From positions 80,073 to 144,072 of the IMG/VR virus record IMGVR_UViG_3300032308_002078: a DNA stretch of 64,000 nt; one strand, given 5' to 3'. The notes below the pieces were generated by a model. That model was given only the letters and a program-made list of their open reading frames with translations, was not told where the DNA came from and searched no databases. Made by a program: the position numbers and the translations under genes. Source of the stretch: a virus (taxonomy: Duplodnaviria > Heunggongvirae > Uroviricota > Caudoviricetes). How positions within the stretch are numbered: position 1 is the stretch's first letter; each line of letters begins with the position of its first letter. Positions 23,901-64,000 of the stretch are shown here, piece by piece.

Positions 23901-24146
23901 ACAGCTTATTATGATCCGAATAATAAATCCATTACTCTCTATACTATGAATAGACACCCAAAAGATGTTTTACGTTCATTTGCTCATGAGATGGTTCATC
24001 ATGAACAAAATTTAGAAGGTAGATTAAATAATATTAATACTACTAATACAAATGAGGATGGAGATTTACCTGAGATTGAAAAAGAAGCATATGAAAAAGG
24101 AAATATGATGTTACGTAATTGGGAGGATAGTATTAAAAATGTATAA
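20979..24146 (+). CDS. Multidomain polyprotein: HxGH nucleotidyltransferase, Cys-His-Asp hydrolase-like module, two HExxH zinc-peptidase modules
   Basis: GGFKPPTKGH; FCDIFA...GHSWV...FYDAE; HEIEH...EVDA; HEMVH...EKEAY. Confidence 0.7.
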   Translation: MNELTKFLIKELLDESKTVAIYGGGFKPPTKGHFNVAELALNELPDIDELKIFVGKGVREGITQKESLAVWNIYKKYLLPKVIIEPSPKGEPTMDVIRYAREHPEEKVYWILGARDGDEGDIKDVEQRKNLLKKYPEVTNVEVKVITSTGGVSGTKARQSLKARDKEQFFQFIPDIKEKEQVWDIVSPVVKEEITPDQVKQADTYADKQLAPVDVDLTSKHVFDRLTSRDSDVTLAQLIGFFKRLGQNKKEFFDFFKKYKEIVATDKRTNLNIPFLNMTNKAIAKTIMRKDNFMSSSPKLVFEVSKEITPDDITRILKRTGEEQDLYVKDWDEFTPELCNDGFCDIFAEKFKEEYPGAELWQTSVSTSPWGFGHSWVKYKDKFYDAETPIGVEDWRDLPYIQKLYQVGKSYPEDVKRINEVGEANLKPYKWEEVDMNGWVTYVEFTTESETEYNVDIATVPYFDKDLNNYKALEIEFLAKPKDAQGSSAKIIVNKGELYRVMATITDIIKYYVKKFKAKAISYSPSKKSDEEDFGSQRDNLYRAFISKAIPGVRFEKNSNFITAILPDNTINEEDPKVGTGKKPKGSSRRLYTDEDPKDTVSIKFKTKEDIVDTLNKTSFKAKSHARQSQIINVVHQRVRAAYSKAKNPEVKSRLKRALDYIEKRKEMSKKKTERLRKMKEASDPQAGTALPYGSGFAPVNEGRYDSITRLVVKDIINSWKSQFNGEASELRFEEDYELENSKGQPIDFELLAVLNLKETEDKTYIVDGGANEELDPPYLEVNFQVDPRNLPKMWSTIYSDLIDVVRHEIEHLTQSGVNVISSKEMVDDQSIRQMINWGLLPQAEYFKLEKEVDAMLQGMYLKAKKSKTPFKDVINDYFEKVGLEGEDKQDVLDLWTKRLKALNLPAIQENDTFGLNELAKTFIKETFEKAWNLQEGMLSLSKYMIDNGMNIKPLPKIKVIKDDEENASHLLGKTAYYDPNNKSITLYTMNRHPKDVLRSFAHEMVHHEQNLEGRLNNINTTNTNEDGDLPEIEKEAYEKGNMMLRNWEDSIKNV

Positions 24147-48415: not shown

Positions 48416-49330
48416 ATGAAAGAGACTCCAAGTCAGTTACCTATCCAAAGTTTTGTTATGAACTTTCCCTTTTCCTTATCAACAGCAGATCCAAATAATA
48501 TTTGGATGCAAGAATTAACAGATGAGGAACTAGCAATTAATAAACCTAAAGCTTACAAGCAATTTATGGACTTGTATAATTTTGTTGCTGGTGGTGCTTT
48601 AGTAAACTTATTACCTTCAGAAGGCAATTTTCAAGACCAAGTTTATGTGGCTAATTTAGGTATTTATTTACCTCATATTAAAAAAGAAAATCATATTATT
48701 TTATCTAATTTTACTTCAGACCCTCGTAGAGGTGAAGAATTAGTTGGAGAAAAATATTTTAACCAAATGGGTTATAAAACAGCCATTTCTCCTTTTAAAT
48801 GGGAAGGTGAAGCTGATTTAAAATACCTTTATGGAAACAAATATATTGGTGGTTATGGTATTCGTTCAAATATTAAAGCATATGAATGGATGGAAGAACA
48901 ATATAATATGGATATTATCAAAGTAGCTATGGTTGATGAGTATTTATATCATTTAGATTGTTCTATTTTTGCTTTAAATACTGAACAAACTTTAATTTGT
49001 ACTGAATTGTTTGATGAGGACGAATTAAAAATGATTGAAAAAGAAACAGAAATCATTGATATTAATGTTGATGATGCTTTAGGTGGAATAACTAACTCTG
49101 TTCGCTTAGGTAATATGGTTTTATGTGCTTCAAACATTTCAGAAATGAAAAAAACTCATGAATATTATGAGGCTGAAGTTCATAAACTTAAAACGTTAGA
49201 AAAGATTTGTGGTGATGCTGGTATGGAACCTGTTATCTTTAACTTATCAGAATATATGAAATCAGGTGCTATGTTGTCTTGTATGATGATGCATTTGAAT
49301 AGAGTTGACCATAATAAAACCTTATTATAA
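48416..49330 (+). CDS. Amidinotransferase / DDAH / deiminase (pentein) family enzyme
   Basis: FQDQVYVAN, RRGEE, WEGEAD, YHLDC and C-terminal GAMLSC catalytic-Cys motif. Confidence 0.8.
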   Translation: MKETPSQLPIQSFVMNFPFSLSTADPNNIWMQELTDEELAINKPKAYKQFMDLYNFVAGGALVNLLPSEGNFQDQVYVANLGIYLPHIKKENHIILSNFTSDPRRGEELVGEKYFNQMGYKTAISPFKWEGEADLKYLYGNKYIGGYGIRSNIKAYEWMEEQYNMDIIKVAMVDEYLYHLDCSIFALNTEQTLICTELFDEDELKMIEKETEIIDINVDDALGGITNSVRLGNMVLCASNISEMKKTHEYYEAEVHKLKTLEKICGDAGMEPVIFNLSEYMKSGAMLSCMMMHLNRVDHNKTLL

Positions 49331-50061
49331 TGGCACAAACATTACAAGAATGGTTAAGTACTGAGGTTAAACAACTTCAAAAAATGCCTGTGGGTGAATT
49401 ATCTAATGTATTTTTCTTTAGAGACCCAATTCGTCCTAATTATATTGACCATGAGCATTTTTATTCACCAGCTGATGGAACTATTTTATATCAAAAGTTT
49501 ATTAAGGATCCTACTGAACCTATAGTTGAAATTAAGGGTATGAATTATACTCTTCAAGATGTTATGGGCGATGATGAGTACAATAAACCTTCATTAGTTA
49601 TTGGTATATTTATGTCGTTTTATGACGTTCACATCAATCGCATACCCTATGGAGGCCTGTTATCATATAAACCACTAGACGCGATACAGTCAACTAATAA
49701 GCCCATGTTAGCTGTAGAAAAGGATATTTTAAATAAAAAAATTAACCCCGCAAACATGGAGTACTTAAAGTATAATGAACGTATGTGGAATAAAATTTAT
49801 TCACCATCTTTAGATTATACTTACTACCTAATTCAGATTGCAGATGAAGATGTAAACGTAATTGCTCCATTTACTATGGATCAAAATGATATGTTTGCTC
49901 AAAACGAAAGATTTTCTTTAATAAGATGGGGTTCACAAGTTGATTTGGTGTTGCCATTAGATGATAGATATGATTTCGAGTTATGTTTAGATGATGCTAT
50001 GCATGTTAATGCTGGCTTAGACCAACTTGTAAAAATTAATTTTAATGAATACACAACCTAA
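49330..50061 (+). CDS. Phosphatidylserine decarboxylase-like pyruvoyl-dependent proenzyme
   Basis: FFFRDPIR, FYSPADG, IFMSFYDVHINRIP and WGSQVDL (equivalent of the GS-S/T self-cleavage site). Confidence 0.75.
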   Translation: MAQTLQEWLSTEVKQLQKMPVGELSNVFFFRDPIRPNYIDHEHFYSPADGTILYQKFIKDPTEPIVEIKGMNYTLQDVMGDDEYNKPSLVIGIFMSFYDVHINRIPYGGLLSYKPLDAIQSTNKPMLAVEKDILNKKINPANMEYLKYNERMWNKIYSPSLDYTYYLIQIADEDVNVIAPFTMDQNDMFAQNERFSLIRWGSQVDLVLPLDDRYDFELCLDDAMHVNAGLDQLVKINFNEYTT

Positions 50062-52469: not shown

Positions 52470-53054
52470 ATGGCTTTATACGGAGGTGCCCGAGATATAT
52501 CAATGTTTAGAAGAGTCAACCGAGAGTTGATGGGGAGTATTATATCTCAAGAAGTCATTTACTACAAATATAAAATAACACAAACTAAAACAAACATGTA
52601 TGGTGAAGCCTTTGAAGGTAGAAACTATGCTGACCCTGTTATGTTATTTGCTTTAATAGAAGTAGGTCCTCAAGAATCTCCAACAAGTGATTTAGGTGTT
52701 GATTTCACTTGGACTATGACTTTTAGATTTTTACGAGACGATTTGTTAAGTAAATTAAACGAAGCTAACCAAGGAGGATTTGGTACATATCAACAACCTT
52801 TTATTCAGTACGGAGCTAATATTCACCCTGAGGTAGGTGATATAATACAGTATCAAAACGGTTATTGGGAGGTAGATAACACTAATGCTACCCAATTCTT
52901 TACAGGTAAAGACCCTCAATATCCTTATAATGATGCTGAAGGAAATAATCCTTTAAATCCAGGATTAGATCAATTTGGTTATAATGTGGAAGTAAGATGT
53001 GATTGTCACTACGTGCCTTCAGATCGATTAGATATAATTAAATCAAGAATGTAA
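52470..53054 (+). CDS. Neck / head-closure protein (gp14-like)
   Basis: Position after the gp13-like gene; MYGEA and PEVGDIIQY...YWEVD motifs. Confidence 0.55.
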   Translation: MALYGGARDISMFRRVNRELMGSIISQEVIYYKYKITQTKTNMYGEAFEGRNYADPVMLFALIEVGPQESPTSDLGVDFTWTMTFRFLRDDLLSKLNEANQGGFGTYQQPFIQYGANIHPEVGDIIQYQNGYWEVDNTNATQFFTGKDPQYPYNDAEGNNPLNPGLDQFGYNVEVRCDCHYVPSDRLDIIKSRM

Positions 53055-53926
53055 TGTCTCAAGTTAGAAAACCTATACCAAAAACCCAAAAGCAGCTTTC
53101 AAAAGAGCAGCATATACCTACTTATCCTCAAGCAGGTAATCCTAATGATTTTAACCCAACCCCAACTAACAACAGAGCATTAAATACAACATTTAAAGGT
53201 GATACTACAAAACCGTTTAGTGTTGGTATTCAAGATATAGATGAAGCAATTTTTTATTATTTTGAAAATATAATTCAACCTTCTGTAATACAAAATGGAC
53301 AAAGATTACCTGTTCCTGTAGTTTATGGTTCTCAAGAAAAATGGAAATCATTTCAAAAGGATGGGTATTATAGGGACCAACTTGGTAAAATACAAGCTCC
53401 GTTGATTATGTTTAAACGTACTAATATAGACAAAAATAGACAGATAGCTAACAAGTTAGATGCTAATAACCCTAACAACTTTGGTGTGTTTACTAAACGT
53501 TATAGTCCACAAAATGCTTATGATAACTTTAAAGTATTAAATAACAGGATTCCACAAAAAGAATATTATGCTGTGATTATGCCTGATTATTTAACTGTTA
53601 CTTATGAGTGTGTTGTGTTTACTTACTATGTAGAACAATTAAATAAAATAGTAGAATCAATGGAGTATGCTTCTGATGCTTATTGGGGTAATCCTCAACG
53701 TTACCAATTTAAAGCAATGATTGATTCCTTTGGTTTTCAAACAGAATTATCTCAAGATGATGAACGTATTGTAAGAAGTACATTTAATATTAAAATAAAT
53801 GGATATATAATTCCAGAGGTATTACAAAAAGATATTACAGCTTTAAAGAAATTTTCTAATAAAACTCAAATATTTATTTCAACAGAAACCACTATACCAC
53901 CAACACAACCTCCATCTACTAATTAA
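53054..53926 (+). CDS. Tail terminator / completion protein (gp15-like)
   Basis: DIDEAI..YF, VPVVYGSQEKW, PLIMFKR and PDY.TV.YE motifs. Confidence 0.6.
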   Translation: MSQVRKPIPKTQKQLSKEQHIPTYPQAGNPNDFNPTPTNNRALNTTFKGDTTKPFSVGIQDIDEAIFYYFENIIQPSVIQNGQRLPVPVVYGSQEKWKSFQKDGYYRDQLGKIQAPLIMFKRTNIDKNRQIANKLDANNPNNFGVFTKRYSPQNAYDNFKVLNNRIPQKEYYAVIMPDYLTVTYECVVFTYYVEQLNKIVESMEYASDAYWGNPQRYQFKAMIDSFGFQTELSQDDERIVRSTFNIKINGYIIPEVLQKDITALKKFSNKTQIFISTETTIPPTQPPSTN

Positions 53927-53953
53927 TATTAAAATTAATTCTAAAGTTTTTAA

Positions 53954-53961
53954 TATTTATA
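53954..53961 (+). promoter_or_regulatory. Putative late promoter box TATTTATA
   Basis: Intergenic, before the fibre gene. Confidence 0.55.
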
Positions 53962-53974
53962 AGTAAATAAAGGA

Positions 53975-56900
53975 ATGGCTGAAAATAGATATAGAGGTAA
54001 TAATCGTTTAGATAACCCCAATCAAGGTAGAGGTTTTTTTGATCGGTCATTAGCTTTTAATAAATTTAATTTACCCATTGTCACTGAAGGATGGGAAGGT
54101 TATGTTTTAACTATTAATGATGATGGTGTTGTTTCTTTAGTTTTAAGTGGAAATGGTGGAAGTGGTACAACAGGTACATCAGGTACTTCTGGTACATCAG
54201 GTTCAAGTGGAACAAGTGGTTCTAGTGGTTTATCAGGTTCAAATGGTACCTCAGGTATAAATGGTTCTTCAGGTACATCAGGATCAACAGCTGGTACAAG
54301 TGGTACTTCAACCACATCTGGCTCTTCAGGAACAAGTGGTAGTTCAGGTTCAACAGGTTCATTTGGTACAAGTGGTATAGAAGGTACTTCAGGTACTAGT
54401 GGAGGTACAAGTGGTACTTCTGGTACAAGCGGTTCATCAGGTTCTTCAGGAACAGCTGGTTCCTCAGGTTCAAGTGGATCAAATGGTTCATCAGGTAATG
54501 GTGGTAACTCAGGCCAATCAAGTACTTCAGGTACTTCAGGCTCATCAGGTACAGCAGGTACCTCAGGATTAAGTCAAACTAGTGGTACAGTTGGTACCTC
54601 AGGTTCAGCTGGTTCTTCAGGAACAGCAGATACAAGTGGAACTTCAGGTTCTAGTGGTAGTTCAGGTTCAAATGGTAACGCAGGTAATTCAGGCCAATCA
54701 AGTACTTCAGGAACTTCTGGTTCTTCAGGTACTACAGGTACATCAGGATTAAGCCAAACTAGTGGAACAACAGGTACATCTGGTACCTCAGGTTTAAGTG
54801 GTTCTACTGGTTCTTCAGGTTCAAGTGGAGCAGATGGTACTTCAGGAACTAGTGGAACAAGTGGTAGTTCTGGATCTAGTGGATCTAATGGATCTAGTGG
54901 AGCAGACGGTTCAAGTGGTACTTCTGGTACATCAGGTACAAGTGGTTCTTCAGGGTCAAATGGTTCATCAGGTAACGCAGGAAACTCAGGTCAATCAAGT
55001 ACTTCAGGTACTAGTGGGTCAAGCGGTTCAACAGGTACTTCAGGTTTATCTCAATCATCTGGCTCTTCAGGTTCTAGTGGTTCTTCAGGTTCAATAGGAA
55101 CTAGTGGAGCTAGTAATACATCAGGCACAAATGGAACAAGTGGTTCAAGTGGATCTTCAGGCTCTACAGGTACATCAGGTGTAGATGGGGGTTCAGGTGC
55201 TTCTAGTACTTCAGGTACAAGTGGCTCTTCAGGTTCAGCAGGTTCAGCAGGTACTTTTGGTACTTCAGGTAATGCAGGTACTTCAGGTTTAAGTAATACA
55301 AGTGGTTCTAGTGGTTCAGCAGGATCCTTTGGTACAACAGGTGATGCTGGTACTTCAGGTTCTAGTAACACTTCAGGAACTAGTGGTTCAGGTGGTTCTA
55401 ACGGAACAACAGGAAACGCTGGTAATAGTGGACAAAGTTCTACATCAGGCACATCAGGCTCAAGTGGTAGTACTGGTACATCAGGACTATCTCAATCTTC
55501 TGGTTCAGCTGGTTCAAGTGGTTCTTCAGGTTCAACAGGAACATCAGGTTCAAGTGGTTCTTCAGGTTCTACAGGTTCATCAGGCTCAAGTGGGGCCGAT
55601 GGTTCTTCAGGATCTTCAGGCACTTCAGGTTCATCTGGTTCTACAGGTTCATATGGTACTTCAGGAGATGCAGGCACATCAGGTAACTCAAACACCTCAG
55701 GTACTTCAGGTTCAGGTGGTTCAAATGGAACAACAGGAAACGCAGGTAACTCAGGTCAATCAAGCACATCAGGTACAAGTGGTTCTTCAGGCTCAACAGG
55801 CACTTCAGGTTTAAGCCAAACTAGTGGTACTAATGGTACCTCTGGTACTTCAGGTTCAACTGGTTCAGTAGGCTCAAGCGGTGGAGATGGTACTTCAGGT
55901 TCATCAGGCACTTCAGGATCTAGTGGATCAACAGGTTCAGCAGGTTCTTCAGGCGATAGTCAAACATCTGGTTCATCTGGAAGCTCAGGCTCTTCAGGTT
56001 CAGCAGGTACAACCGGTACATCAGGACTAGCAGGTGCTAGTGGTTTATCTAATACAAGTGGAACTTCTGGTTCAGGAGGTTCTAATGGTAGTTCAGGAGC
56101 AGCAGGTTCTGCAGGTACATCAGGTACAGCAGGTACATCTGGTTCTTCAGGTACTTCAGGTTCTAGTGGTTCTACAGGTTCTTCAGGATCTAGTGGTGCA
56201 GATGGCACTTCTGGTTCTGCTGGAACAAGTGGTTCAAGTGGATCTACAGGTACTTTTGGTACTTCAGGTGATGCTGGTACTGCGGGTAACTCAAATACTT
56301 CAGGTACTTCAGGATCAAGTGGTTCAAATGGAACAACAGGAAATGCAGGTAACAGTGGACAAAGTTCCACTTCAGGTACTTCAGGCAGCTCAGGTTCAAC
56401 AGGTACAAGTGGTTTAAGCCAAACTAGTGGTACAAATGGATCAAGTGGTTCTTCAGGTTTATCCGGTACAGCAGGTACCGCAGGATCTTCAGGTACAGCT
56501 GGCTCAACAGGTACAAATGGTTCGTCAGGTAATGCTGGAACTTCTGGATCTTCAAATACTTCAGGTTCTAGTGGTAGTTCAGGTACATCAGGTATAGCAG
56601 GTGCAGCAGGTTTTTCTGCTCAAAGTGCAACTTCAGGAACAAGTGGCTCAAGTGGTTCTAATGGAACAACAGGAGCTGCGGGTACATCAGGTTCAAGTCA
56701 AACAAGTGGTTCAGCAGGTAGTTCAGGTTCACAAGGTAGTACTGGTGCCGCAGGTACATCAGGATTAAGTCAAACAAGTGGTTCTAGTGGATCAAGTGGT
56801 TCACAAGGTAGCACAGGAGCAGCAGGTACATCTGGAGCTTCTAATACAAGTGGTTCATCTGGTTCTGCAGGTTCATTTGGTACAACAGGAGACGCAGGTA

Positions 56901-59710
56901 CATCAGGTAATTCAAATACCTCAGGTACAAGCGGTTCAGGTGGTTCAAATGGAACCACAGGAAATGCCGGCAACTCAGGTCAATCAAGTACTTCAGGTAC
57001 AAGTGGATCAAGTGGTTCAACAGGTACAAGTGGTTTAAGTCAAACAAGTGGTTCAAATGGTACTTCAGGATCTAGTGGATCAACAGGTTCAGCCGGTTCT
57101 TCAGGTAATAGCGATACTTCTGGTTTTTCAGGTACAAGTGGTTCTGCTGGTTCATCAGGATCTTCAGGTTCTACAGGTTCCTCAGGAACTAGTGGGGCAA
57201 GTAATACAGCAGGTTCTTCAGGTTCAAGTGGTACATCAGGTACTTCTGGCACTTCAGGTTCTAGTGGTTCTTCAGGTTCAACCGGTACATCAGGTGTAGA
57301 CGGAGGTTCAGGAGTTTCAGCAACCTCTGGTACATCAGGCTCAAGTGGTTCAAATGGTAGCACAGGTGCTGCTGGTACTTCAGGGGCTAGTCAAACTAGT
57401 GGTTCTAGTGGATCAAGTGGTTCACAAGGTACCACTGGTAATATTGGTACTTCTGGAGCTAGTCAAACTAGTGGATCAAGTGGTTCAGCAGGTTCTAATG
57501 GAACAACAGGAGACGCAGGTACATCAGGATCTTCTAATACTTCAGGCACCTCAGGATCAGCAGGTTCTAATGGAACTACAGGTAACGCAGGTACTTCAGG
57601 TGCCTCTAATACCTCGGGTTCATCAGGTTCAAGTGGTTCCTCAGGTTCTTCTGGTACAACTGGTACTTCAGGTTTAGCGGGTGCTAGTGGTATTTCAAAT
57701 ACATCAGGCACAAGTGGTTCTTCTGGTTCAAATGGAACTACAGGGGCAGCAGGTACATCAGGTTCAAGTCAAACAAGTGGTACAAGTGGATCTAATGGAT
57801 CTCAAGGTACAACAGGAGCAGCTGGTACTTCAGGCAATTCTAATACCTCAGGTACTAGTGGTTCAGGTGGATCACAAGGTACAACAGGTAATGCAGGTAC
57901 ATCAGGTGCCTCTAATACAAGTGGTACAAGCGGCTCAGGTGGTTCTAATGGAACAACAGGGGCAGCAGGTACATCAGGCTCAAGTAATACATCTGGTACA
58001 AGTGGTTCCTCAGGAACTTCAGGTATAGCAGGTGCTGCTGGTTTCTCAGCCCAAAGTGCAACCTCTGGTACTTCAGGTTCAGCAGGTTCAAATGGAACAG
58101 GTGGAGCAGCAGGTACATCAGGAGCAAGTAATACAAGCGGTTCTAGTGGTTCAGCTGGTTCTCAAGGTACAACAGGTAATGCTGGTACTTCTGGGGCCTC
58201 AAACACTTCAGGTACAAGTGGCTCAGCAGGTACAAATGGTACAACAGGAGCAGCTGGTATTTCAGGCTCAAGCAATACTTCAGGAACAAGTGGTTCAGGT
58301 GGTTCTAACGGAACAACAGGTGCCGCTGGAGCTTCAGGTTCATCTAATACATCTGGTACTTCAGGTTCAGGAGGTTCTGCTGGTACTGCTGGTGCGGCCG
58401 GTGCTTCAGGCTCAAGTAATACCTCAGGTACTTCTGGATCAGGAGGTTCTGCTGGTACAGCAGGTGCCGCTGGAGCTTCAGGTTCAAGCAATACTTCAGG
58501 TACAAGTGGTTCAGGAGGTTCTAATGGAACTAATGGAGCTGCTGGAGCTTCAGGGACTTCTAATACAAGTGGTACATCTGGTTCTTCAGGTTCATCTGGT
58601 TCTACAGGAACTTCAGGTGTAGATGGAGGTTCAGGTGTTTCAGCTACTTCAGGTACTTCAGGTTCTGCTGGATCTAATGGAACAACAGGTAATGCGGGCA
58701 CATCAGGAGCCTCAAATACTTCAGGTTCTGCTGGTTCAGCAGGTTCAAACGGAACTACAGGTAATGCAGGTACTTCAGGTGCCTCTAATACAAGTGGATC
58801 AAGTGGTTCAGCTGGTTCTTCAGGTACAACAGGTACTTCAGGATTAGCAGGTGCAAGCGGTATATCAAATACTTCAGGTACTGCTGGTTCAAGTGGTTCT
58901 AACGGAACTACAGGAGCTTCAGGAACATCAGGATCAAGTAATGTATCAGGTACTTCAGGTTCAGGTGGATCAAACGGTACAACAGGAGCAGCTGGTACTT
59001 CAGGAAATTCAAATGTTTCTGGTACATCAGGATCAGGTGGTTCAAATGGAACTACAGGAGCTGCAGGTACATCAGGATCATCAAACACTTCAGGAACATC
59101 AGGTTCTTCTGGTACTTCTGGTATAGCAGGTGCTGCTGGTTTATCTGCTCAAAGTGGCACTTCAGGTACAAGCGGTTCAGCAGGTACAGCAGGTCTTACA
59201 TTTAATGGTTCCTCAGGAATAAGTGGTGGTACATTTAGTAATCAACCTGATTATTTAGTACGTACTACAGGAACTACTACTATACAAAGTGTATCTTTCT
59301 TATATACTGATGTTACAAATAGTCGATTAGGTATTGGTACTACTTCTCCATCATATAAATTACATGTAAATGGAGCTGTAAGTGGTATATCTATTTACGC
59401 ATCAGATGATATTCAAGCATTCTCAGATCAAAGAGTTAAAGGTGATGTTAAATTAGTAAAAGATGCTATTGATAAAATTAATCAAATTAATGGTGTAACA
59501 TTTACAAGATTAGATGCTACTAGTGATAACAAACATAGACATGCCGGTGTAATTGCTCAAGAAGTAGAAAAAGTACTCCCAGAAGTAGTACATACAGATC
59601 CTCAAACAGGATTAAAATCAGTAGCTTATGGTAACTTAAATGCTTTGTTAATTGAAGCTATTAAAGAATTAAGTAAAAAAGTAGAAGAATTAGAGAATAA
59701 GTTAAAATGA
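53975..59710 (+). CDS. Very long Gly-X-Y (Ser/Thr-rich) tail fibre with C-terminal peptidase S74 intramolecular chaperone
   Basis: About 1690 aa of G-S/T-S triplets. C-terminal SDQRVK...INGVTF...GVIAQEVEKVLPEVV...VAYGNLNALLIEAIKEL. Confidence 0.85.
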   Translation: MAENRYRGNNRLDNPNQGRGFFDRSLAFNKFNLPIVTEGWEGYVLTINDDGVVSLVLSGNGGSGTTGTSGTSGTSGSSGTSGSSGLSGSNGTSGINGSSGTSGSTAGTSGTSTTSGSSGTSGSSGSTGSFGTSGIEGTSGTSGGTSGTSGTSGSSGSSGTAGSSGSSGSNGSSGNGGNSGQSSTSGTSGSSGTAGTSGLSQTSGTVGTSGSAGSSGTADTSGTSGSSGSSGSNGNAGNSGQSSTSGTSGSSGTTGTSGLSQTSGTTGTSGTSGLSGSTGSSGSSGADGTSGTSGTSGSSGSSGSNGSSGADGSSGTSGTSGTSGSSGSNGSSGNAGNSGQSSTSGTSGSSGSTGTSGLSQSSGSSGSSGSSGSIGTSGASNTSGTNGTSGSSGSSGSTGTSGVDGGSGASSTSGTSGSSGSAGSAGTFGTSGNAGTSGLSNTSGSSGSAGSFGTTGDAGTSGSSNTSGTSGSGGSNGTTGNAGNSGQSSTSGTSGSSGSTGTSGLSQSSGSAGSSGSSGSTGTSGSSGSSGSTGSSGSSGADGSSGSSGTSGSSGSTGSYGTSGDAGTSGNSNTSGTSGSGGSNGTTGNAGNSGQSSTSGTSGSSGSTGTSGLSQTSGTNGTSGTSGSTGSVGSSGGDGTSGSSGTSGSSGSTGSAGSSGDSQTSGSSGSSGSSGSAGTTGTSGLAGASGLSNTSGTSGSGGSNGSSGAAGSAGTSGTAGTSGSSGTSGSSGSTGSSGSSGADGTSGSAGTSGSSGSTGTFGTSGDAGTAGNSNTSGTSGSSGSNGTTGNAGNSGQSSTSGTSGSSGSTGTSGLSQTSGTNGSSGSSGLSGTAGTAGSSGTAGSTGTNGSSGNAGTSGSSNTSGSSGSSGTSGIAGAAGFSAQSATSGTSGSSGSNGTTGAAGTSGSSQTSGSAGSSGSQGSTGAAGTSGLSQTSGSSGSSGSQGSTGAAGTSGASNTSGSSGSAGSFGTTGDAGTSGNSNTSGTSGSGGSNGTTGNAGNSGQSSTSGTSGSSGSTGTSGLSQTSGSNGTSGSSGSTGSAGSSGNSDTSGFSGTSGSAGSSGSSGSTGSSGTSGASNTAGSSGSSGTSGTSGTSGSSGSSGSTGTSGVDGGSGVSATSGTSGSSGSNGSTGAAGTSGASQTSGSSGSSGSQGTTGNIGTSGASQTSGSSGSAGSNGTTGDAGTSGSSNTSGTSGSAGSNGTTGNAGTSGASNTSGSSGSSGSSGSSGTTGTSGLAGASGISNTSGTSGSSGSNGTTGAAGTSGSSQTSGTSGSNGSQGTTGAAGTSGNSNTSGTSGSGGSQGTTGNAGTSGASNTSGTSGSGGSNGTTGAAGTSGSSNTSGTSGSSGTSGIAGAAGFSAQSATSGTSGSAGSNGTGGAAGTSGASNTSGSSGSAGSQGTTGNAGTSGASNTSGTSGSAGTNGTTGAAGISGSSNTSGTSGSGGSNGTTGAAGASGSSNTSGTSGSGGSAGTAGAAGASGSSNTSGTSGSGGSAGTAGAAGASGSSNTSGTSGSGGSNGTNGAAGASGTSNTSGTSGSSGSSGSTGTSGVDGGSGVSATSGTSGSAGSNGTTGNAGTSGASNTSGSAGSAGSNGTTGNAGTSGASNTSGSSGSAGSSGTTGTSGLAGASGISNTSGTAGSSGSNGTTGASGTSGSSNVSGTSGSGGSNGTTGAAGTSGNSNVSGTSGSGGSNGTTGAAGTSGSSNTSGTSGSSGTSGIAGAAGLSAQSGTSGTSGSAGTAGLTFNGSSGISGGTFSNQPDYLVRTTGTTTIQSVSFLYTDVTNSRLGIGTTSPSYKLHVNGAVSGISIYASDDIQAFSDQRVKGDVKLVKDAIDKINQINGVTFTRLDATSDNKHRHAGVIAQEVEKVLPEVVHTDPQTGLKSVAYGNLNALLIEAIKELSKKVEELENKLK
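54149..59228 (+). repeat. Degenerate 9-bp coding tandem repeat with higher-order blocks
   Basis: Continuous GGT-ACT-TCA / GGT-TCA-AGT type units; recurring blocks such as GNSGQSSTSGTSGSSG. Confidence 0.95.
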
Positions 59711-60384
59711 CACTTCCAACCTCAAATATTAGTTTTAAAAACATATGGGAAGAAGCTAATGGCACTTACTCTTCAGGTATTATTAGTTTGTTAACTATGA
59801 GTTTTTTTTCCTATTTTGCTGGTCCTAATGGTTCTAGTTCTCAAACAACTAATAATTGGGGCCAAGGTGAAGGATCAGGAGCTAATAGAATATATGGTAC
59901 AACAGCCAAAACAACAGGAATACAAGTAGGAGATTTTGATGGACTAACATATTATTATGACAATTCAACTTTTCAAGTCACATTAGATGTAACCAATAAC
60001 AAAACAAATCCAGCTCCCCCTCCTCCAGTAGATAACGCAGTTAATGTTAATGTTGAATTATATGATTCTACATTTTCATATCAATATGTTCAAGGTGGAG
60101 GTATGGCTATGGCTCCTGGTACTTATGGGCCTTCAGCAGTTAGTCAACCTACAGGAGATCCTATTATTTTTAGAGGATACTGGATAGTTACAATTTCAGG
60201 AGCAAACCCTACATTTGCTGGAGGTACATGTAATATTGATATAAATGGAACTAATTATGTGACTGGAGGTACTTTATCAGCCGGTCCAACTCCTAATACA
60301 TTTAATTCAACAACATACGGAACAGCAGATGTAACTTCATATAGTGGTTATACAGGTTTGTATTTCACAGTAACTATAAATTAA
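59707..60384 (+). CDS. Fibre-associated distal / receptor-binding protein
   Basis: MTLPTSNISFKNIWEE N-terminus typical of genes following S74 fibres; beta-rich; ATGA coupling. Confidence 0.5.
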   Translation: MTLPTSNISFKNIWEEANGTYSSGIISLLTMSFFSYFAGPNGSSSQTTNNWGQGEGSGANRIYGTTAKTTGIQVGDFDGLTYYYDNSTFQVTLDVTNNKTNPAPPPPVDNAVNVNVELYDSTFSYQYVQGGGMAMAPGTYGPSAVSQPTGDPIIFRGYWIVTISGANPTFAGGTCNIDINGTNYVTGGTLSAGPTPNTFNSTTYGTADVTSYSGYTGLYFTVTIN

Positions 60385-60396
60385 TTTTTAATAAAA

Positions 60397-60430
60397 TTTG
60401 GATATTTAACTTACTTTTTATATATTTATA
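60397..60430 (+). promoter_or_regulatory. Bipartite promoter TTTGG-N19-TATATT with overlapping TATTTATA box
   Basis: TTTGG at 60397-60401 and TATATT at 60421-60426. Heads the glycosyltransferase operon. Confidence 0.6.
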
Positions 60431-60461
60431 GATATAAACTGTTACAAACAAAAATAAATTT

Positions 60462-60659
60462 ATGGCTACTAAAAAATTAACTAAAAAAGAGATTGAAGCT
60501 CGAAAAGTAGAAATTGTTAAGTTTTACAATGAATTGAAAGAAGAAGAAGCTGAATTGGGTAAAACATTGTCTGAAAAGTATGGTGTAGGCTCAATCAACA
60601 CTGAGAGTGGAGAATTTATTCCTTCTGAAATAGAAAATACTGAAGTCGCTTCCTTCTAA
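60462..60659 (+). CDS. Small coiled-coil protein, possibly a fibre assembly chaperone
   Basis: 65 aa; LSEKYGVGSINTESGEF. Confidence 0.45.
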   Translation: MATKKLTKKEIEARKVEIVKFYNELKEEEAELGKTLSEKYGVGSINTESGEFIPSEIENTEVASF

Positions 60660-60677
60660 TCTTATTTTAAAGGTTAT

Positions 60678-62669
60678 ATGGAAAAACTACTATATGTAGC
60701 CCCCCATTTATCAACAGGGGGGCTGCCTCAATATCTAACTAAAAAAATAGAACTACTCAAAAATAATTTTGAGATTTATTTAGCTGAATGGTCAGATTGT
60801 ACTGGGGGTGTATTAGTAGTTACTCGTAACAAAATTGTAAAGCTTGTTGATAAAGACAAGTTTTTTACTTTAGGAGACAACAAACAAGAACTTATTAATA
60901 TTATTAATCAGGTAAAACCTGATATTATCCATTTAGAGGAAATACCTGAGTTTTTTATGGATTTTAATATCGCAAACCAAATCTACACTCAGGATAGAAC
61001 CTATAAAATTGTAGAAACGTCTCACGATTCATCTTACGATATAACTCAAAAGAAATTCTTTCCTGACAAGTTTATGTTTGTGTCTCAATGGCAAATAAAT
61101 CAATATAAAGATATAGACATTCCTAAAGTATTAGTTGAATATCCTATAGAATATATTGATCGTCCTGACAGACAAGAGGCACTACAAAAATTAGGATTAG
61201 ATCCTGATAAAAAACATATTTTACATATTGGGTTATTTACTCCTCGTAAAAATCAAGCTGAGTTTTTTGCCTATGCTAAAGCATTACCACAACACGAATT
61301 CCATTGTGTAGGTAATCAAGCAGACAATTTTAAACATTACTGGGAACCATTAATGAATGATAAACCCGATAATTTAACTTGGTGGAATGAAAGAACAGAT
61401 GTAGATGCTTTTTATCAGGCTATGGATTTATTTTTATTTACATCCAGAGGTACAAACAATGATAAAGAAACAATGCCTTTAGTAATTAGGGAGGCTGTTT
61501 CATATCAAATACCAATTTTAATTCATAATCTACCTGTATATTTGAATTATTGGGATGATTATAATGTTAATTATTTAGATACAACAGACTTTAGTTATAA
61601 TTTAAGTTTAATTGAATCAAGTTTAAACTCTAGTAATTATATTAATGTAGAGGAAGAAGCAATTGTAGTTTCAACATATCCGTTATTAAATTCTATAGTT
61701 AAAACAACTAAAGAATGTATTGAGACTTTAAAACAAACAGGTAGAAAAATTATATTAACATCACATTTACCAATTCCTAAAGATTTACAGGAAATGGTTG
61801 ATTATTGTATTTACGATAAAAATAATTTACTAACAAAACATACATTCTATCAGTATACATGGTTTGATTTTGATAGTTGGAAAGTAGATTTAATGTTAAC
61901 AGGTGAAGATAATGATGTTTACCATGGACCTTCTGTTTATACAAACTATTACAATGCTGCCTCGTTAGCTAAAGATTTAGGTATTAAAAAATTATATTTC
62001 TTAAATTATGATTACCATTTAAAAAATACATCTTATATTGATAATATATCTTTAATACTAAATAATAAAAAAGCATATGTTGGTCTAAGAGAAGAACAAG
62101 AAGGTAATACAATTATTACTTATTTCTTAGCATCAGAACCTAAATTCTATTTAGATCATTTTCCATTAATTCAAACATCTAAAGAATATGATGATTTGAT
62201 GATAAAATGGGGTAGTGAATCTAATGGTTTAGAAAATTTAACTTACCACACATTTAATCAAGATAAAGATAAAATATATTGGGAAGATAAACTAAATTTT
62301 ACCAAATTAATAGATGAAAATTTTGAACATAAAGATTATTCAAGAGTAGAATATTTTTCTGTACTACCTGTTAAAGATCATCCTGAACAATTTGCTGTAT
62401 TTTTAAGTATAGCTAATTCCACAGATAATAGAGATATTGAAATAGCTGTTTATGAGGATGATAAAATGTTATTTGATGAAACAGTAAAAGTAACTCATAA
62501 ATTATCTTGGTTTAGACAAGTAGTATTTAATCCTGAAAAAACATATAAAGTATATTATAGTGCTTTTGATAGATACAATCAAAATTTAGTTGAAACTAAA
62601 AAAATTATAATAAATAAAGAATATTTTGAAAACCAATTACCTAAAAACGGATTTTTAACACTATTATGA
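60678..62669 (+). CDS. Two-domain glycosyltransferase (GT-B/GT4-like N-terminus plus a second putative GT domain)
   Basis: PHLSTGGLPQY, PDIIHL, GLFTPRKNQ and FYQAMDLFLFTS...ETMPLVIREA motifs. C-terminal IILTSH...DY.IYD and FLNYD. Confidence 0.8.
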   Translation: MEKLLYVAPHLSTGGLPQYLTKKIELLKNNFEIYLAEWSDCTGGVLVVTRNKIVKLVDKDKFFTLGDNKQELINIINQVKPDIIHLEEIPEFFMDFNIANQIYTQDRTYKIVETSHDSSYDITQKKFFPDKFMFVSQWQINQYKDIDIPKVLVEYPIEYIDRPDRQEALQKLGLDPDKKHILHIGLFTPRKNQAEFFAYAKALPQHEFHCVGNQADNFKHYWEPLMNDKPDNLTWWNERTDVDAFYQAMDLFLFTSRGTNNDKETMPLVIREAVSYQIPILIHNLPVYLNYWDDYNVNYLDTTDFSYNLSLIESSLNSSNYINVEEEAIVVSTYPLLNSIVKTTKECIETLKQTGRKIILTSHLPIPKDLQEMVDYCIYDKNNLLTKHTFYQYTWFDFDSWKVDLMLTGEDNDVYHGPSVYTNYYNAASLAKDLGIKKLYFLNYDYHLKNTSYIDNISLILNNKKAYVGLREEQEGNTIITYFLASEPKFYLDHFPLIQTSKEYDDLMIKWGSESNGLENLTYHTFNQDKDKIYWEDKLNFTKLIDENFEHKDYSRVEYFSVLPVKDHPEQFAVFLSIANSTDNRDIEIAVYEDDKMLFDETVKVTHKLSWFRQVVFNPEKTYKVYYSAFDRYNQNLVETKKIIINKEYFENQLPKNGFLTLL

Positions 62670-63613
62670 GAATTTGTCAAGTAAATCCTGGTTGTGGAAT
62701 ACCCATCCCTCCTCCATCATGGGGTGCAATTGAAAAAATTGTATGGGAATTAACCTGTAATTTAAAAGAATTAGGCCATGAAGTAAATATAAAATGGGCT
62801 AATGAAATCCATTCTGGAGAATATGATTTAGTTATAGTACATGTGGCTAATTTAGCGCTAAAATTAGCGTCTAAAAACGTATCATATGTGTTTCAACACC
62901 ACGACCATCATGCTTACCATTACGGAAAGGACTCTATTATATATAAACAAAATAGAGAAGCTATGGAAAAATCAGTTTTCTCCTTAGTACCAGCTCGTTA
63001 TTTAGTTGATTATTTTGATTTACCTAATGTGCATTATTTTTCACATGGAGTAAATACAGAAACTTTTAAACCAAATGATACAACATCTATTTATCATAGT
63101 TTATTAATGTTAGCAAATAATGGTTTAGGTGGTTATGGTTCATATGATAGAAAAGGATTTGAGTTAGGTATAAAAACAGCTATGGCTTCTAATTTACCTA
63201 TTACTATTGCTGGACCTAAAAATAATGAAAATTGGTTTAATGATAATCCATGGGTATTTGGTTATCCTAAATTAAGTGTTATAAGTGAACCTACAAATGA
63301 ACAATTAAGACAATTATATAATTCTCACACTATATTTTTACATCCTAGTGATTTAGAGGCAGGCCATCCTAATTTAACTTTATTAGAGGCAGCCGCTTGT
63401 GGTTTACCTATTTTAGGTTGGATTGAAGAAGAAACTACATTTCATGGTTTATGGAGAACACCTCGTGATTTAAGAGAAATGTTACGAGGATTAAATGTTA
63501 TTATAGATGAATATAATACTTACAGACAAAATGCTTTAAAAACAGCAGATGAATTGTCTTGGTTAAATCGTTCAAAAGAATTAATACAGTTATATGAAAG
63601 ACTTACTAATTAA
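62666..63613 (+). CDS. Glycosyltransferase family 4 (GT-B)
   Basis: WGAIEKIV, HGVNTETF, RKGFEL and FLHPSDLEAGHPNLTLLEAAACGLPI motifs. Confidence 0.85.
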   Translation: MRICQVNPGCGIPIPPPSWGAIEKIVWELTCNLKELGHEVNIKWANEIHSGEYDLVIVHVANLALKLASKNVSYVFQHHDHHAYHYGKDSIIYKQNREAMEKSVFSLVPARYLVDYFDLPNVHYFSHGVNTETFKPNDTTSIYHSLLMLANNGLGGYGSYDRKGFELGIKTAMASNLPITIAGPKNNENWFNDNPWVFGYPKLSVISEPTNEQLRQLYNSHTIFLHPSDLEAGHPNLTLLEAAACGLPILGWIEEETTFHGLWRTPRDLREMLRGLNVIIDEYNTYRQNALKTADELSWLNRSKELIQLYERLTN

Positions 63614-64000
63614 AGAATATAAAAATACTAAAATTTTAAATATAAAAAGCAAAAAACCTTCAAACACTTTTAATGTTAATTTTGTTGATGGTGCTTTTTT
63701 AGAAGTAGTAGGTCCTTTAAAAGAAGAATATAAAGTTACTTTTACAAATACTAAAACTAATGAAATAGTTCATAATAGTGTTATTAATAATAACATGTGG
63801 ACTCGTACTAGTATAAAGTATTATGTTGATTGGAAAATAGAAGTATACAATAATACATCAGGAGAAAAAGTATATGAACATATTTTTAACCCTAGAAATA
63901 AAAGAGTTTATATACATTTAGATTCAGGGGCAGTAGGTGATACTTTAGCTTGGTTTCCTTATGCTGAAGAATTTAGAAAAAAATGGGATTGTGAGGTAAT
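63594..64000 (+). CDS. TibC/Aah (BAHT)-like protein O-glycosyltransferase, 3'-truncated by the window; not in the ORF track
   Basis: Translates as MKDLLIKEY...FNVNFVDGAFLEV...NMWTRTSIKYYVDWKIEV...KRVYIHLDSGAVGDTLAWFPYAEEFRKKWDCEV. Matches remembered TibC/Aah motifs F.DG, KYYV...I.V and G..GD..AWFPY.E.F. Confidence 0.7.
   Translation, partial: MKDLLIKEYKNTKILNIKSKKPSNTFNVNFVDGAFLEVVGPLKEEYKVTFTNTKTNEIVHNSVINNNMWTRTSIKYYVDWKIEVYNNTSGEKVYEHIFNPRNKRVYIHLDSGAVGDTLAWFPYAEEFRKKWDCEV

What the first reader, a model, noticed from the sequence alone, without database searches (positions are those of the whole stretch)
53975..64000. Candidate phage-encoded protein O-glycosylation system: Ser/Thr-saturated fibre next to a BAHT (TibC/Aah)-like transferase and two other glycosyltransferases
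Seen: the fibre's ~1690-aa shaft is roughly half Ser/Thr. It is followed by an operon with a two-domain GT, a GT4 and an unannotated partial ORF at 63594 containing KYYVDWKIEV...GAVGDTLAWFPYAEEF. Established: TibC/Aah of E. coli are iron-containing transferases that heptosylate serines in repetitive autotransporter adhesins; glycosylated virions are known in some mycobacteriophages and giant viruses. Inference: the phage coats its fibre with glycans, with the BAHT-like enzyme adding the first sugar and the GT4s extending it. Possible roles are shielding, stabilising the shaft, or adhesion.
Basis: partly seen in the sequence, partly recalled or inferred. Interest (0 to 1): 0.9.

Follow-up and report, generated by a model that had tools for sequence, protein, structure and literature searches.

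The report
Phage sugar-transferase cassette beside collagen-like fibre
A large phage of Flavobacteria-type hosts encodes a half-micrometre, proline-free, serine-packed collagen-like fibre next to a conserved set of sugar-adding enzymes, one a true relative of the bacterial TibC/Aah adhesin glycosylases, so it probably sugar-coats its own fibre, though no experiment shows this and the sugar is unknown.

Summary
ORF 53975-59710 is a 1911-aa fibre. Its shaft is 50% Ser/Thr with no proline, and it is a Gly-X-Y collagen-like repeat ending in a Peptidase_S74 chaperone.

Downstream lie a 225-aa protein, a GT4 + GT-A-fold enzyme, a GT4-like enzyme, and the ORF at 63594. Extended past the window, that ORF is 400 aa. 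It matches TIGR04414 (TibC/Aah) at 304 bits (cut-off 200) and keeps the catalytic Asp, the ADP-sugar contacts and the four iron-finger Cys. Tail sheath and tube follow.

The three-enzyme cassette is conserved in over 100 related viral contigs. Where enough upstream sequence exists, a Ser-rich collagen-like fibre nearly always precedes it. The nearest cultured phage, Flavobacterium phage immuto, has neither. Microcystis phage Mel-JY01 and several unrelated contigs show the same pairing in other gene contexts.

Caveats:
- No heptose pathway is found in the phage, or in 151 sampled genomes of the likely host family, so "heptosylation" is unproven.
- Two close relatives keep the cassette with a non-collagen fibre.
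- Nothing has been tested biochemically.

This scan has reported the same pairing on other DNA (at least 38 genomes). I found no paper describing it.

The parts
53975..59710 (+). Fibre gene (P0001, 1911 aa). It has a 58-aa N-terminal attachment part, a proline-free Gly-[S/T]-[S] collagen-like shaft (residues about 59-1700, nt 54149-59074), a short beta-rich tip, and a C-terminal Peptidase_S74 intramolecular chaperone (residues 1817-1873, nt 59423-59593).
   Evidence: Pfam Collagen E 1.7e-155; S74 58.8 bits; X position S 41% / T 34%; Y position S 59%; 0 Pro.
59707..60384 (+). 225-aa protein (P0002) whose start overlaps the fibre's stop codon. It matches no family. It may be a fibre-associated or tip protein.
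   Evidence: Homologues follow the fibre in L005, L006, L007, L038 and L164.
60462..60659 (+). 65-aa open frame in the only sizeable gap of the block. It was not examined further and may not be a gene.
   Evidence: mechanical ORF list.
60678..62669 (+). Two-module glycosyltransferase (P0003, 663 aa). Residues 1 to about 320 form a GT-B/GT4 module. Residues about 325-550 form a GT-A (nucleotide-diphospho-sugar transferase) fold, followed by a beta-sandwich (about 558-645).
   Evidence: Pfam Glycos_transf_1 43.4 bits. Full-length model: Foldseek matches to BshA, MshA and sucrose-phosphate synthase, E 1e-9. C-terminal-half model: pLDDT 92.8, matching glycogenin (GT8), KdsB and COLGALT1 (GT25), E about 5e-6, TM 0.35-0.49.
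62666..63613 (+). GT4-like glycosyltransferase (P0004, 315 aa). Its start overlaps the stop of the preceding gene.
   Evidence: Pfam Glyco_trans_1_2 27.2 bits (cut-off 25). Glycos_transf_1 and Glyco_trans_1_4 fall just under cut-off. PHROG 2170 glycosyltransferase.
63594..64000 (+). 5' part of the BAHT-family (TibC/Aah-like, GT9) protein glycosyltransferase (P0006, 400 aa). The gene continues to G000:144868, which would be window position 64796.

Beyond the window follow a Ser-rich 209-aa fibre-like protein (P0007), an 83-aa ORF, tail sheath, tube, a long coiled protein in the tape-measure position (no family hit) and baseplate-region ORFs.

Best explanation
This is a late-gene, virion-module cassette with which the phage glycosylates its own fibre in the host cytoplasm.

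Proposed steps:
1. The fibre polypeptide trimerises from its C-terminal S74 chaperone and zips into a very long, proline-free collagen-like triple helix. The 1500-1640 in-register residues at 0.286 nm each give roughly 0.43-0.47 micrometres. The chaperone is then cut off.
2. The BAHT-family enzyme puts a first sugar on serine or threonine hydroxyls of the repeats. It is an inverting GT-B enzyme with catalytic Asp116 and an adenine-contacting Arg296. Ser dominates the Y position, so Y-position Ser is the likeliest acceptor.
3. The GT4 module, the GT-A module and the second GT4-like enzyme extend the glycan. In relatives, extra enzymes in the same island tailor it (sulfotransferase, FkbM-type and other methyltransferases, GT2s, an SDR epimerase/dehydratase).
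4. The glycan probably replaces hydroxyproline and charge pairs as the stabiliser and solubiliser of a Ser-rich helix. It may also shield the fibre or make it sticky.

Shown: the identities, the conserved catalytic residues, the linkage, and the lack of membrane segments. Inferred: that the fibre is the acceptor, the order of sugars, the donor and the role. The donor should be ADP-linked, but heptose is not assured.
For: - BAHT membership: 304 bits to TIGR04414 over its whole length; 4RAP E 1.5e-54. The residues shown essential in TibC (PMC4358343) are invariant in 15 phage homologues: D116, K237, R296, W315 and the four Cys. TibC's T226 is Ser here.
- Cassette conservation: GT663, GT315 and BAHT keep the same order in the 80 best of 124 viral contigs (BAHT identity 55-96%), just upstream of sheath and tube.
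- Linkage within the clade: among about 24 distinct relatives with enough upstream sequence, about 20 have a Ser/Thr-rich Gly-X-Y fibre directly upstream. All nine Y=Ser collagen-like loci found by the reverse search belong to this clade. Every one that reaches far enough carries the cassette.
- Absence together: the nearest cultured relative, immuto (sheath 55% identical), has no BAHT and shows no GT cassette and no Gly-X-Y fibre in the homologous 27-kb region examined.
- Independent contexts: in Mel-JY01 the BAHT (42% identical, fused to an FkbM methyltransferase) lies 1.7 kb from an unannotated 1016-aa collagen-like ORF with S+T 0.40. This is about 24 kb from its sheath gene.
- Systematic sample: I took 8 BAHT cluster representatives at even ranks. 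Of 6 informative ones, 4 have a Ser-rich collagen-like ORF within 10 kb in unrelated gene contexts.
- Cytoplasmic enzymes: no transmembrane segment in any cassette protein. Start and stop codons overlap across the block.
- Precedents: SgtA lies next to bclA3 and O-glycosylates Thr/Ser of collagen repeats (PMC7157674). Glycosylated Thr stabilises Riftia cuticle collagen (Mann 1996, pmid 8757292, cited in PMC11923368). Mycobacteriophage virions are glycosylated (Freeman 2023, cited in PMC12619734).
Against: - There is no biochemical or proteomic evidence.
- Within the clade, linkage is confounded by conserved gene order. The cassette occupies a fixed slot between the fibre genes and the sheath.
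- L005/L006 (BAHT 94-96% identical) keep the cassette, but their fibre is a Gly-rich beta-roll-like repeat with no Gly-X-Y runs. L051 has a Gly-Pro-Gln/Thr collagen. In L041 the cassette follows the major capsid gene.
- The canonical donor seems unavailable. The phage has no SIS, PfkB, epimerase or NTP-transferase hit and only one sub-threshold cytidylyltransferase-like hit. rfaE_dom_II and gmhA are over cut-off in 0 of 151 sampled genomes of the family of the Winogradskyella bin.
- The hydrophobic thumb tip that TibC needs for its dodecamer (F265/V266) aligns to Asp-Glu here.
- The complex prediction gave no answer.
Confidence: 0.6

Rival explanations
1. The cassette does glycosylate a virion protein, but the main acceptor is not the collagen-like shaft. 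Candidates are the Ser-rich fibre-like proteins encoded directly downstream of the BAHT (the P0007 family, with a conserved N-terminal 'DVSQSVDAFTG' motif), P0002, or another structural protein.
For: - In E. coli the transferase gene lies directly upstream of its substrate gene (aah-aidA, tibC-tibA; established knowledge). Here P0007 (32% S+T) starts 4 nt after the BAHT stop.
- Members of the P0007 family occur in one to three tandem copies, 194-801 aa long, after the BAHT in many relatives.
- The cassette persists when the upstream fibre is not collagen-like (L005/L006).
Against: - Many relatives (the L008-L039 group) have only the 83-86-aa ORF between BAHT and sheath, so they have no P0007-like gene.
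- P0002 homologues are found in only a few loci.
- In independent contexts (Mel-JY01, L096, L099, L101/L102) the recurring neighbour is a Ser-rich collagen-like ORF.
Confidence: 0.13
2. The enzymes act on host molecules during infection, for example envelope glycolipids, capsule or host surface proteins. The purpose would be to block superinfection or remodel the cell, not to modify the virion.
For: - GT4 and GT9 enzymes commonly build LPS cores. P0003 has weak, far sub-threshold similarity to glycolipid glycosyltransferases.
- Phage glycosyltransferases that change host serotype are known (reviewed in PMC12619734).
- The genome has a second, separate GT/methyltransferase cluster, so this phage invests broadly in glycan chemistry.
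Against: - P0006 scores 304 bits to the protein-specific BAHT model, against 44 bits or less to the LPS heptosyltransferase models.
- No flippase or membrane-embedded partner is present, and no cassette protein has a transmembrane segment.
- The block lies inside the late structural module between the fibre and the sheath.
- BAHT homologues recur beside Ser-rich collagen-like ORFs in unrelated contigs.
Confidence: 0.12
3. The cassette modifies phage DNA (glycosylated bases), or the BAHT homologue is a non-catalytic assembly scaffold for the fibre.
For: - Phage GT-B enzymes glycosylate DNA in T4-like phages, and diverse viral GTs hypermodify DNA (Pyle 2024, cited in PMC12619734).
- TibC forms a large ring around its substrate (PMC4358343), which could in principle be reused as a chaperone.
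Against: - No BAHT-family member is known to act on DNA.
- The catalytic and donor-binding residues are invariant across the phage clade, which argues against loss of catalysis.
- The position is in the structural module, not the replication module. The other GT cluster, at G000:11213-18841 next to a nuclease gene, is the better candidate for DNA work.
Confidence: 0.05

Closest known systems
TibC-TibA and Aah-AIDA-I of E. coli (bacterial autotransporter heptosyltransferases, BAHT; TIGR04414; PDB 4RAP/4RB4; PMC4358343)
   Same: The enzyme family is the same over the full length: beta-barrel, GT-B catalytic domain and iron finger. The catalytic Asp, the Lys/Arg/Trp donor contacts and the four Cys are kept. 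It is a cytoplasmic enzyme encoded beside a long, repetitive, Ser-rich surface fibre that could be modified many times over.
   Different: - The putative acceptor is a collagen-like triple-helix fibre of a virus, not a beta-helical autotransporter passenger.
- The thumb tip needed for the TibC dodecamer is replaced by an invariant phage motif ('GDEWHDSKLGGTL').
- TibC's Pro300, which determines donor stereo-selectivity, is Gly here.
- No ADP-heptose pathway was seen in the phage or in the sampled candidate host family.
- The enzyme works in a cassette with three further GT modules.
SgtA-BclA3 of Clostridioides difficile and BclA of Bacillus anthracis (glycosylated collagen-like exosporium hairs; PMC7157674)
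   Same: A dedicated glycosyltransferase gene lies next to a collagen-like protein gene. Thr/Ser within the Gly-X-Y repeats are O-glycosylated. The products are hair-like surface filaments.
   Different: - Those repeats are Gly-Pro-Thr, and the initiating enzyme is a GT-A O-GlcNAc transferase using UDP-GlcNAc.
- Here the repeats have no Pro, Ser is in the Y position, the initiating enzyme is GT9/BAHT, and the system is viral.
Mycobacteriophage virion glycosylation (Freeman et al. 2023, Cell Host Microbe, PMC10527164; known here only through citation in PMC12619734)
   Same: Phage-encoded glycosyltransferases lie within the structural gene block and modify the phage's own virion proteins.
   Different: There the glycans sit on C-terminal extensions of the capsid and tail-tube subunits of actinobacteriophages. 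No BAHT enzyme and no collagen-like acceptor is involved.
Collagen-like tail fibres with Peptidase_S74 chaperones (for example prophage collagen-like proteins of E. coli O157:H7, PMC3368898)
   Same: A Gly-X-Y shaft combined with a trimerising, self-cleaving C-terminal chaperone in a phage fibre.
   Different: The usual phage collagens are Pro- or Gln-rich. In 70 of the 79 loci returned by the reverse search the collagen-like fibre has low Ser/Thr in its Gly-X-Y runs, with Gln dominating Y in the four whose positions I tabulated, and none of the 70 had a BAHT within 10 kb. The Ser-in-Y type seen here is the one that travels with the BAHT cassette.

Membership tests
BAHT (TibC/Aah autotransporter O-heptosyltransferases, TIGR04414) | Full-length match to the family model above its curated cut-off | tested here: met
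   304 bits against a cut-off of 200; residues 24-396 match profile positions 10-374 of 374. 4RAP E 1.5e-54.
BAHT (TibC/Aah autotransporter O-heptosyltransferases, TIGR04414) | Catalytic base Asp110 and donor contacts Thr226, Lys230, Arg286 and Trp305 of TibC | tested here: met
   These align to D116, S233 (a conservative change), K237, R296 and W315. All are invariant in 15 phage homologues.
BAHT (TibC/Aah autotransporter O-heptosyltransferases, TIGR04414) | Iron finger: four Cys (TibC C339, C342, C358, C370) | tested here: met
   C351, C354, C368 and C380 are invariant. Iron binding itself was not tested.
BAHT (TibC/Aah autotransporter O-heptosyltransferases, TIGR04414) | Beta-hairpin thumb with a hydrophobic tip (F265/V266) that builds the dodecamer | tested here: inconclusive
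   The tip aligns to D269/E270 within an invariant phage motif. This is a loop alignment and the oligomeric state was not modelled.
BAHT (TibC/Aah autotransporter O-heptosyltransferases, TIGR04414) | Acceptor is the beta-helical passenger of an AIDA-type autotransporter encoded next door | tested here: not met
   No autotransporter is present. The neighbours are a collagen-like fibre and Ser-rich fibre-like proteins.
BAHT (TibC/Aah autotransporter O-heptosyltransferases, TIGR04414) | Donor is ADP-glycero-manno-heptose | tested here: inconclusive
   The adenine-contacting Arg is kept. However, the phage has no heptose pathway. rfaE_dom_II and gmhA are over cut-off in 0 of 151 sampled genomes of the candidate host family, and glgC (ADP-glucose) in 47 of 151. 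The host itself is not identified.
Collagen triple-helix repeat fibres with an S74 intramolecular chaperone | Gly at every third residue over long runs, plus a C-terminal Peptidase_S74 domain | tested here: met
   61 runs covering 1503 residues, with in-register interruptions. Pfam Collagen E 1.7e-155 and S74 58.8 bits.
Collagen triple-helix repeat fibres with an S74 intramolecular chaperone | Stabilising Pro/Hyp or charge pairs in the X and Y positions | tested here: not met
   The shaft has 0 Pro and 17 charged residues in 1642. Actual triple-helix formation cannot be tested here.
GT4 retaining glycosyltransferases (GT-B) | Glycos_transf_1 domain and GT-B fold | tested here: met
   P0003 N-terminal half: 43.4 bits (cut-off 26.4); Foldseek matches to BshA and MshA, E 1e-9. 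P0004 is borderline: 27.2 bits to Glyco_trans_1_2 (cut-off 25).
GT-A nucleotide-diphospho-sugar transferases (GT8/GT25-like) | GT-A fold with a metal-binding DxD-type motif | tested here: inconclusive
   The fold match is moderate (glycogenin, KdsB, COLGALT1; E about 5e-6, TM 0.35-0.49; model pLDDT 92.8). Invariant acidic residues are D375, D380 and D445. No Pfam hit, and the motif was not assigned.

The most novel reading that the evidence does not exclude
Phages of Bacteroidota, and independently other aquatic phages, build hair-like fibres 0.4 to over 1 micrometre long from a proline-free 'Gly-Ser/Thr-Ser' collagen. Its triple helix would depend on dense O-glycosylation by a virus-specific branch of the BAHT family that has left both its autotransporter substrate and possibly its heptose donor. 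In other words, it would be a glycan-stabilised collagen used as an alternative to hydroxyproline, with a swappable tailoring island (sulfation, methylation, extra sugars) that diversifies the virion surface.
Probability: 0.3. Interest if true: 0.8.

Novelty: new variant of a known kind. Interest (0 to 1): 0.65.

Why it matters
- It would extend protein hyper-glycosylation by the TibC/Aah family from a few enterobacterial adhesins to virions of abundant environmental phages. There are over 4000 close homologues in metagenomes.
- It would show a second route, after mycobacteriophages, by which phages decorate their particles.
- It would give a natural example of sugar-stabilised, proline-free collagen, which is of interest for collagen folding rules and for biomaterials.
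- It flags a practical annotation problem: these fibres are mis-called or missed in deposited genomes, as in Mel-JY01.
- The open question of the donor sugar can be tested directly with recombinant enzyme and synthetic Gly-Thr-Ser peptides.

Tried and rejected
- Complex prediction of P0006 with fibre residues 1040-1120 gave no answer: score 0.01, partner pLDDT 28. It is not evidence either way.
- The promoter and terminator scan of 53000-64000 was not above the shuffled background, and Bacteroidota promoters are not covered.
- tblastn of the shaft against cultured phages returned nothing, most likely because of the low-complexity filter.
- Foldseek on the full-length P0003 model reported matches only of GT-B (GT4) size and kind, so I folded the C-terminal half separately.
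- The reverse search from the shaft found 79 Pro-free collagen-like loci. All nine Ser-in-Y loci turned out to belong to the window's own clade. The contrast of 3/9 against 0/70 (Fisher p 0.001) is therefore confounded by relatedness, and I do not count it as independent support.
- The scan of bacterial genomes with the phage BAHT profile found only two contigs, both phage contigs binned into Flavobacteriales MAGs. For this branch I could not confirm the earlier notes' claim that bacterial chromosomes carry the pairing.
- The weak cytidylyltransferase-like hit in the 1055-aa ORF was not recovered in the Pfam scan, whose only hit was a sub-threshold DUF6934. I rejected it as a heptose-activating enzyme.
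- Literature searches for BAHT or TibC together with phage or virus found nothing relevant.
Full report
**What is there**

The window is bases 80073-144072 of a 165,734-bp virus record that CheckV rates complete. ORF 53975-59710 encodes a 1911-aa protein.

- Residues 59-1700 are 34% Ser, 31% Gly, 16.5% Thr, 7.7% Ala and 5.5% Asn. There is no proline and only 17 charged residues.
- The shaft is not merely Ser/Thr-rich. It keeps Gly at every third position in 61 runs covering 1503 residues.
- Almost all breaks are single in-register triplets in which Gly is replaced: NTS 26 times, QTS 11, STS 8. This gives a 24-residue (72-bp) unit whose DNA copies are only 66-82% alike.
- Ser or Thr fills 75% of X positions. 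Ser alone fills 59% of Y positions.
- Pfam calls it Collagen (E 1.7e-155), with a C-terminal Peptidase_S74 intramolecular chaperone at residues 1817-1873. PHROGs call it a tail fibre.
- It is the only ORF in the genome with a Gly-X-Y run of 30 residues or more.
- If fully triple-helical at the established 0.286 nm per residue, it would be about 0.43-0.47 micrometres long. This length is an inference.

**The genes after it**

| Position | Protein | What it is |
|---|---|---|
| 59707-60384 | P0002, 225 aa | Overlaps the fibre stop; no family |
| 60678-62669 | P0003, 663 aa | GT4 N-terminal half, GT-A C-terminal half, terminal beta-sandwich |
| 62666-63613 | P0004, 315 aa | Borderline GT4-like protein |
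| 63594 onward | P0006, 400 aa | BAHT-family glycosyltransferase |

- For P0003, the N-terminal half scores 43.4 bits to Glycos_transf_1. Foldseek matches the full model to BshA and MshA at E 1e-9.
- I folded the C-terminal half of P0003 separately (pLDDT 92.8). It is a GT-A nucleotide-sugar-transferase fold. The best matches are glycogenin, KdsB and the collagen galactosyltransferase COLGALT1 (E about 5e-6, TM 0.35-0.49).
- The ORF at 63594 runs off the window. Fetched from the genome, it is 400 aa.
- None of these proteins has a membrane-spanning segment. The reading frames overlap or abut, apart from one gap of about 290 bp that holds the 65-aa open frame.
- Downstream come a 209-aa Ser-rich protein, an 83-aa ORF, tail sheath (Pfam), an ORF in the tube position and a long coiled protein in the tape-measure position. 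The last two gave no Pfam hit and are named by position and by the matching genes of phage immuto.
- Upstream are a Gp23-type major capsid protein, PhoH and a head-completion/adaptor protein.
- The block therefore lies inside the late structural module.

**Is the last enzyme really TibC-like?**

Yes.

- It scores 304 bits against NCBIfam TIGR04414 (cut-off 200) over the whole profile. It scores only 44 bits or less to LPS heptosyltransferase models.
- It aligns to the TibC crystal-structure sequence at E 1.5e-54.
- The TibC paper (PMC4358343) names the catalytic base Asp110, the donor contacts Thr226, Lys230, Arg286 and Trp305, and the iron-binding Cys339/342/358/370.
- These align to D116, S233, K237, R296, W315 and C351/354/368/380. 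All are invariant in 15 phage homologues of 56-73% identity.
- Two things differ. The hydrophobic thumb tip (F265/V266) that TibC needs to form its dodecamer aligns to Asp-Glu inside a motif that is itself invariant in the phage clade. Pro300, which sets heptose stereo-selectivity, is Gly.

**Linkage in relatives**

- A scan of IMG/VR found 124 contigs with homologues (55-96% identity). In the 80 kept, the order is two-module GT, GT4-like, BAHT, a variable stretch, then sheath and tube, wherever the contig reaches.
- About 24 distinct relatives have at least 1.5 kb upstream of the cassette. About 20 of them have a Ser/Thr-rich Gly-X-Y fibre directly upstream, with shafts from about 100 to over 3600 repeat residues.
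- The exceptions are informative:
  - L005/L006, the closest relatives, carry a Gly-rich beta-roll-like fibre with an S74 end and an added sulfotransferase.
  - L051 carries a Gly-Pro-Gln/Thr collagen together with a 2OG-Fe(II) oxygenase and two GT2s.
  - In L041 the cassette follows the capsid gene.
- Other relatives add more enzymes to the same island: a GT2-methyltransferase fusion, an FkbM methyltransferase, or an SDR epimerase/dehydratase. It behaves like a variable glycan-tailoring island around a conserved three-gene core.
- The nearest cultured phage, Flavobacterium phage immuto (sheath 55% identical), has no BAHT. It shows no GT cassette and no Gly-X-Y fibre in the homologous 27-kb region I examined.

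**Independent contexts**

Gene order is conserved within the clade, so I looked outside it.

- Only four of 50,697 deposited phage records have a BAHT.
- In Microcystis phage Mel-JY01 the BAHT is fused to an FkbM methyltransferase. It lies 1.7 kb from a 1016-aa collagen-like ORF (S+T 0.40) that the record does not annotate on that strand. This is about 24 kb from its sheath gene.
- I sampled 8 of the 150 best BAHT cluster representatives at even ranks. Six were informative:
  - Four had a Ser-rich collagen-like ORF within 10 kb in quite different gene surroundings (L096, L097, L099, L101/L102).
  - One was ambiguous.
  - One crAss-like contig had none.
- A reverse search starting from the shaft found 79 Pro-free collagen-like loci of two kinds:
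  - In 70 loci Ser+Thr makes up 0.15-0.36 of the Gly-X-Y runs; Gln dominates the Y position in the four I tabulated. None of the 70 has a BAHT within 10 kb.
  - In 9 loci Ser+Thr is 0.40 or more; Ser dominates Y in the four I tabulated. All nine belong to the window's own clade and carry the cassette wherever the contig reaches.
- That contrast is striking, but it is confounded by relatedness.

**Host and donor**

- The only hits to the phage BAHT profile in 185,579 species genomes are two phage contigs binned into Flavobacteriales MAGs. Together with immuto and the 30% G+C content, this points to Flavobacteriia.
- The phage has no SIS, PfkB, SDR-epimerase or NTP-transferase gene.
- In 151 sampled genomes of the family of the Winogradskyella bin:

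| Gene model | Genomes over cut-off |
|---|---|
| rfaE_dom_II | 0 of 151 |
| gmhA | 0 of 151 |
| glgC (ADP-glucose) | 47 of 151 |

- The enzyme keeps the Arg that reads adenine, so an ADP-sugar is likely. Calling the system 'heptosylation' is not justified for this phage.

**Mechanism, rivals and standing**

- The best reading (about 0.6) is cytoplasmic O-glycosylation of the phage's own fibre. The BAHT enzyme would start the glycan on Ser/Thr of the repeats, and three further GT modules would extend it. The glycan would stabilise and hydrate a helix that lacks proline and charge.
- Precedents:
  - SgtA/BclA3, a dedicated GT next to a collagen-like gene that O-glycosylates Thr/Ser in the repeats (PMC7157674).
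  - Glycosylated Thr in Riftia collagen (pmid 8757292).
  - Mycobacteriophage virion glycans.
- Rivals:
  - Another virion protein is the acceptor, notably the Ser-rich protein encoded right after the BAHT.
  - The enzymes modify the host envelope or host proteins.
  - The cassette modifies DNA, or the BAHT has a non-catalytic role.
- Nothing here is biochemical, and the complex prediction gave no answer.
- Searches of the paper library found no description of BAHT enzymes in phages.
- Earlier reports of this scan describe the same pairing on other DNA in at least 38 genomes. I treated these as leads only.

Noticed in passing
G000:C1:11213-18841 (outside the window; L103:11213-18841): A second glycan-type gene cluster: two GT4-like genes, two GT2 genes, a weak GT10-like hit, a Methyltransf_24 and several unknowns. 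It lies just after a PD-(D/E)XK nuclease gene. Its target (DNA, host or virion) is unknown.
   Followed up: partly
window 49330-50061: A phosphatidylserine-decarboxylase-like gene (Pfam PS_Dcarbxylase, 85.8 bits) lies between the major capsid gene and PhoH in the structural module.
   Followed up: no
L002:1873-2502 and relatives (for example L043:1583-3436, L046:2193-4454, L068:2932-5298): A family of fibre-like proteins shares an N-terminal 'DVSQSVDAFTG'-type motif and has very different lengths (194-801 aa). It occurs in one to three tandem copies between the BAHT and the sheath. One member ends in a Peptidase_G2 self-cleaving domain.
   Followed up: partly
L004:2-3052 (Microcystis phage Mel-JY01, PP395634.1): The deposited record annotates two minus-strand hypothetical genes and a short plus-strand gene where a single plus-strand 1016-aa collagen-like ORF runs to the record start. 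This is probably a mis-annotation of the fibre gene, which also wraps the record ends.
   Followed up: partly
L090 (NZ_JABDKL010000107.1) and L091 (NZWA01000020.1): Two contigs in Flavobacteriales MAGs are phage contigs of this clade (fibre, cassette, sheath, tube and so on). They are either binning carry-over or a trace of infection.
   Followed up: yes
L051:1-6417 and L045:250-2738: Relatives with a proline-type collagen fibre (Gly-Pro-Gln/Thr) carry a 2OG-Fe(II) oxygenase of the prolyl-hydroxylase kind plus GT2 genes in the same island. L045 shows the oxygenase homologue but its fibre lies off the contig. This suggests that hydroxylation goes with Pro-containing repeats.
   Followed up: partly
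L104:4553-18760 and L164:2-13018: Fibres of the same clade reach 4735 aa and over 4338 aa, with about 3600 residues in Gly-X-Y runs. If fully helical that would be over 1 micrometre.
   Followed up: no
L002:2512-2763 and relatives: A conserved 81-86-aa ORF always lies directly before the tail sheath gene. It matches no family.
   Followed up: no
window 20979-24146: A 1055-aa ORF with a sub-threshold cytidylyltransferase-like N-terminus (17.4 bits) and no other family. Other notes of this scan read it as a polyprotein.
   Followed up: no
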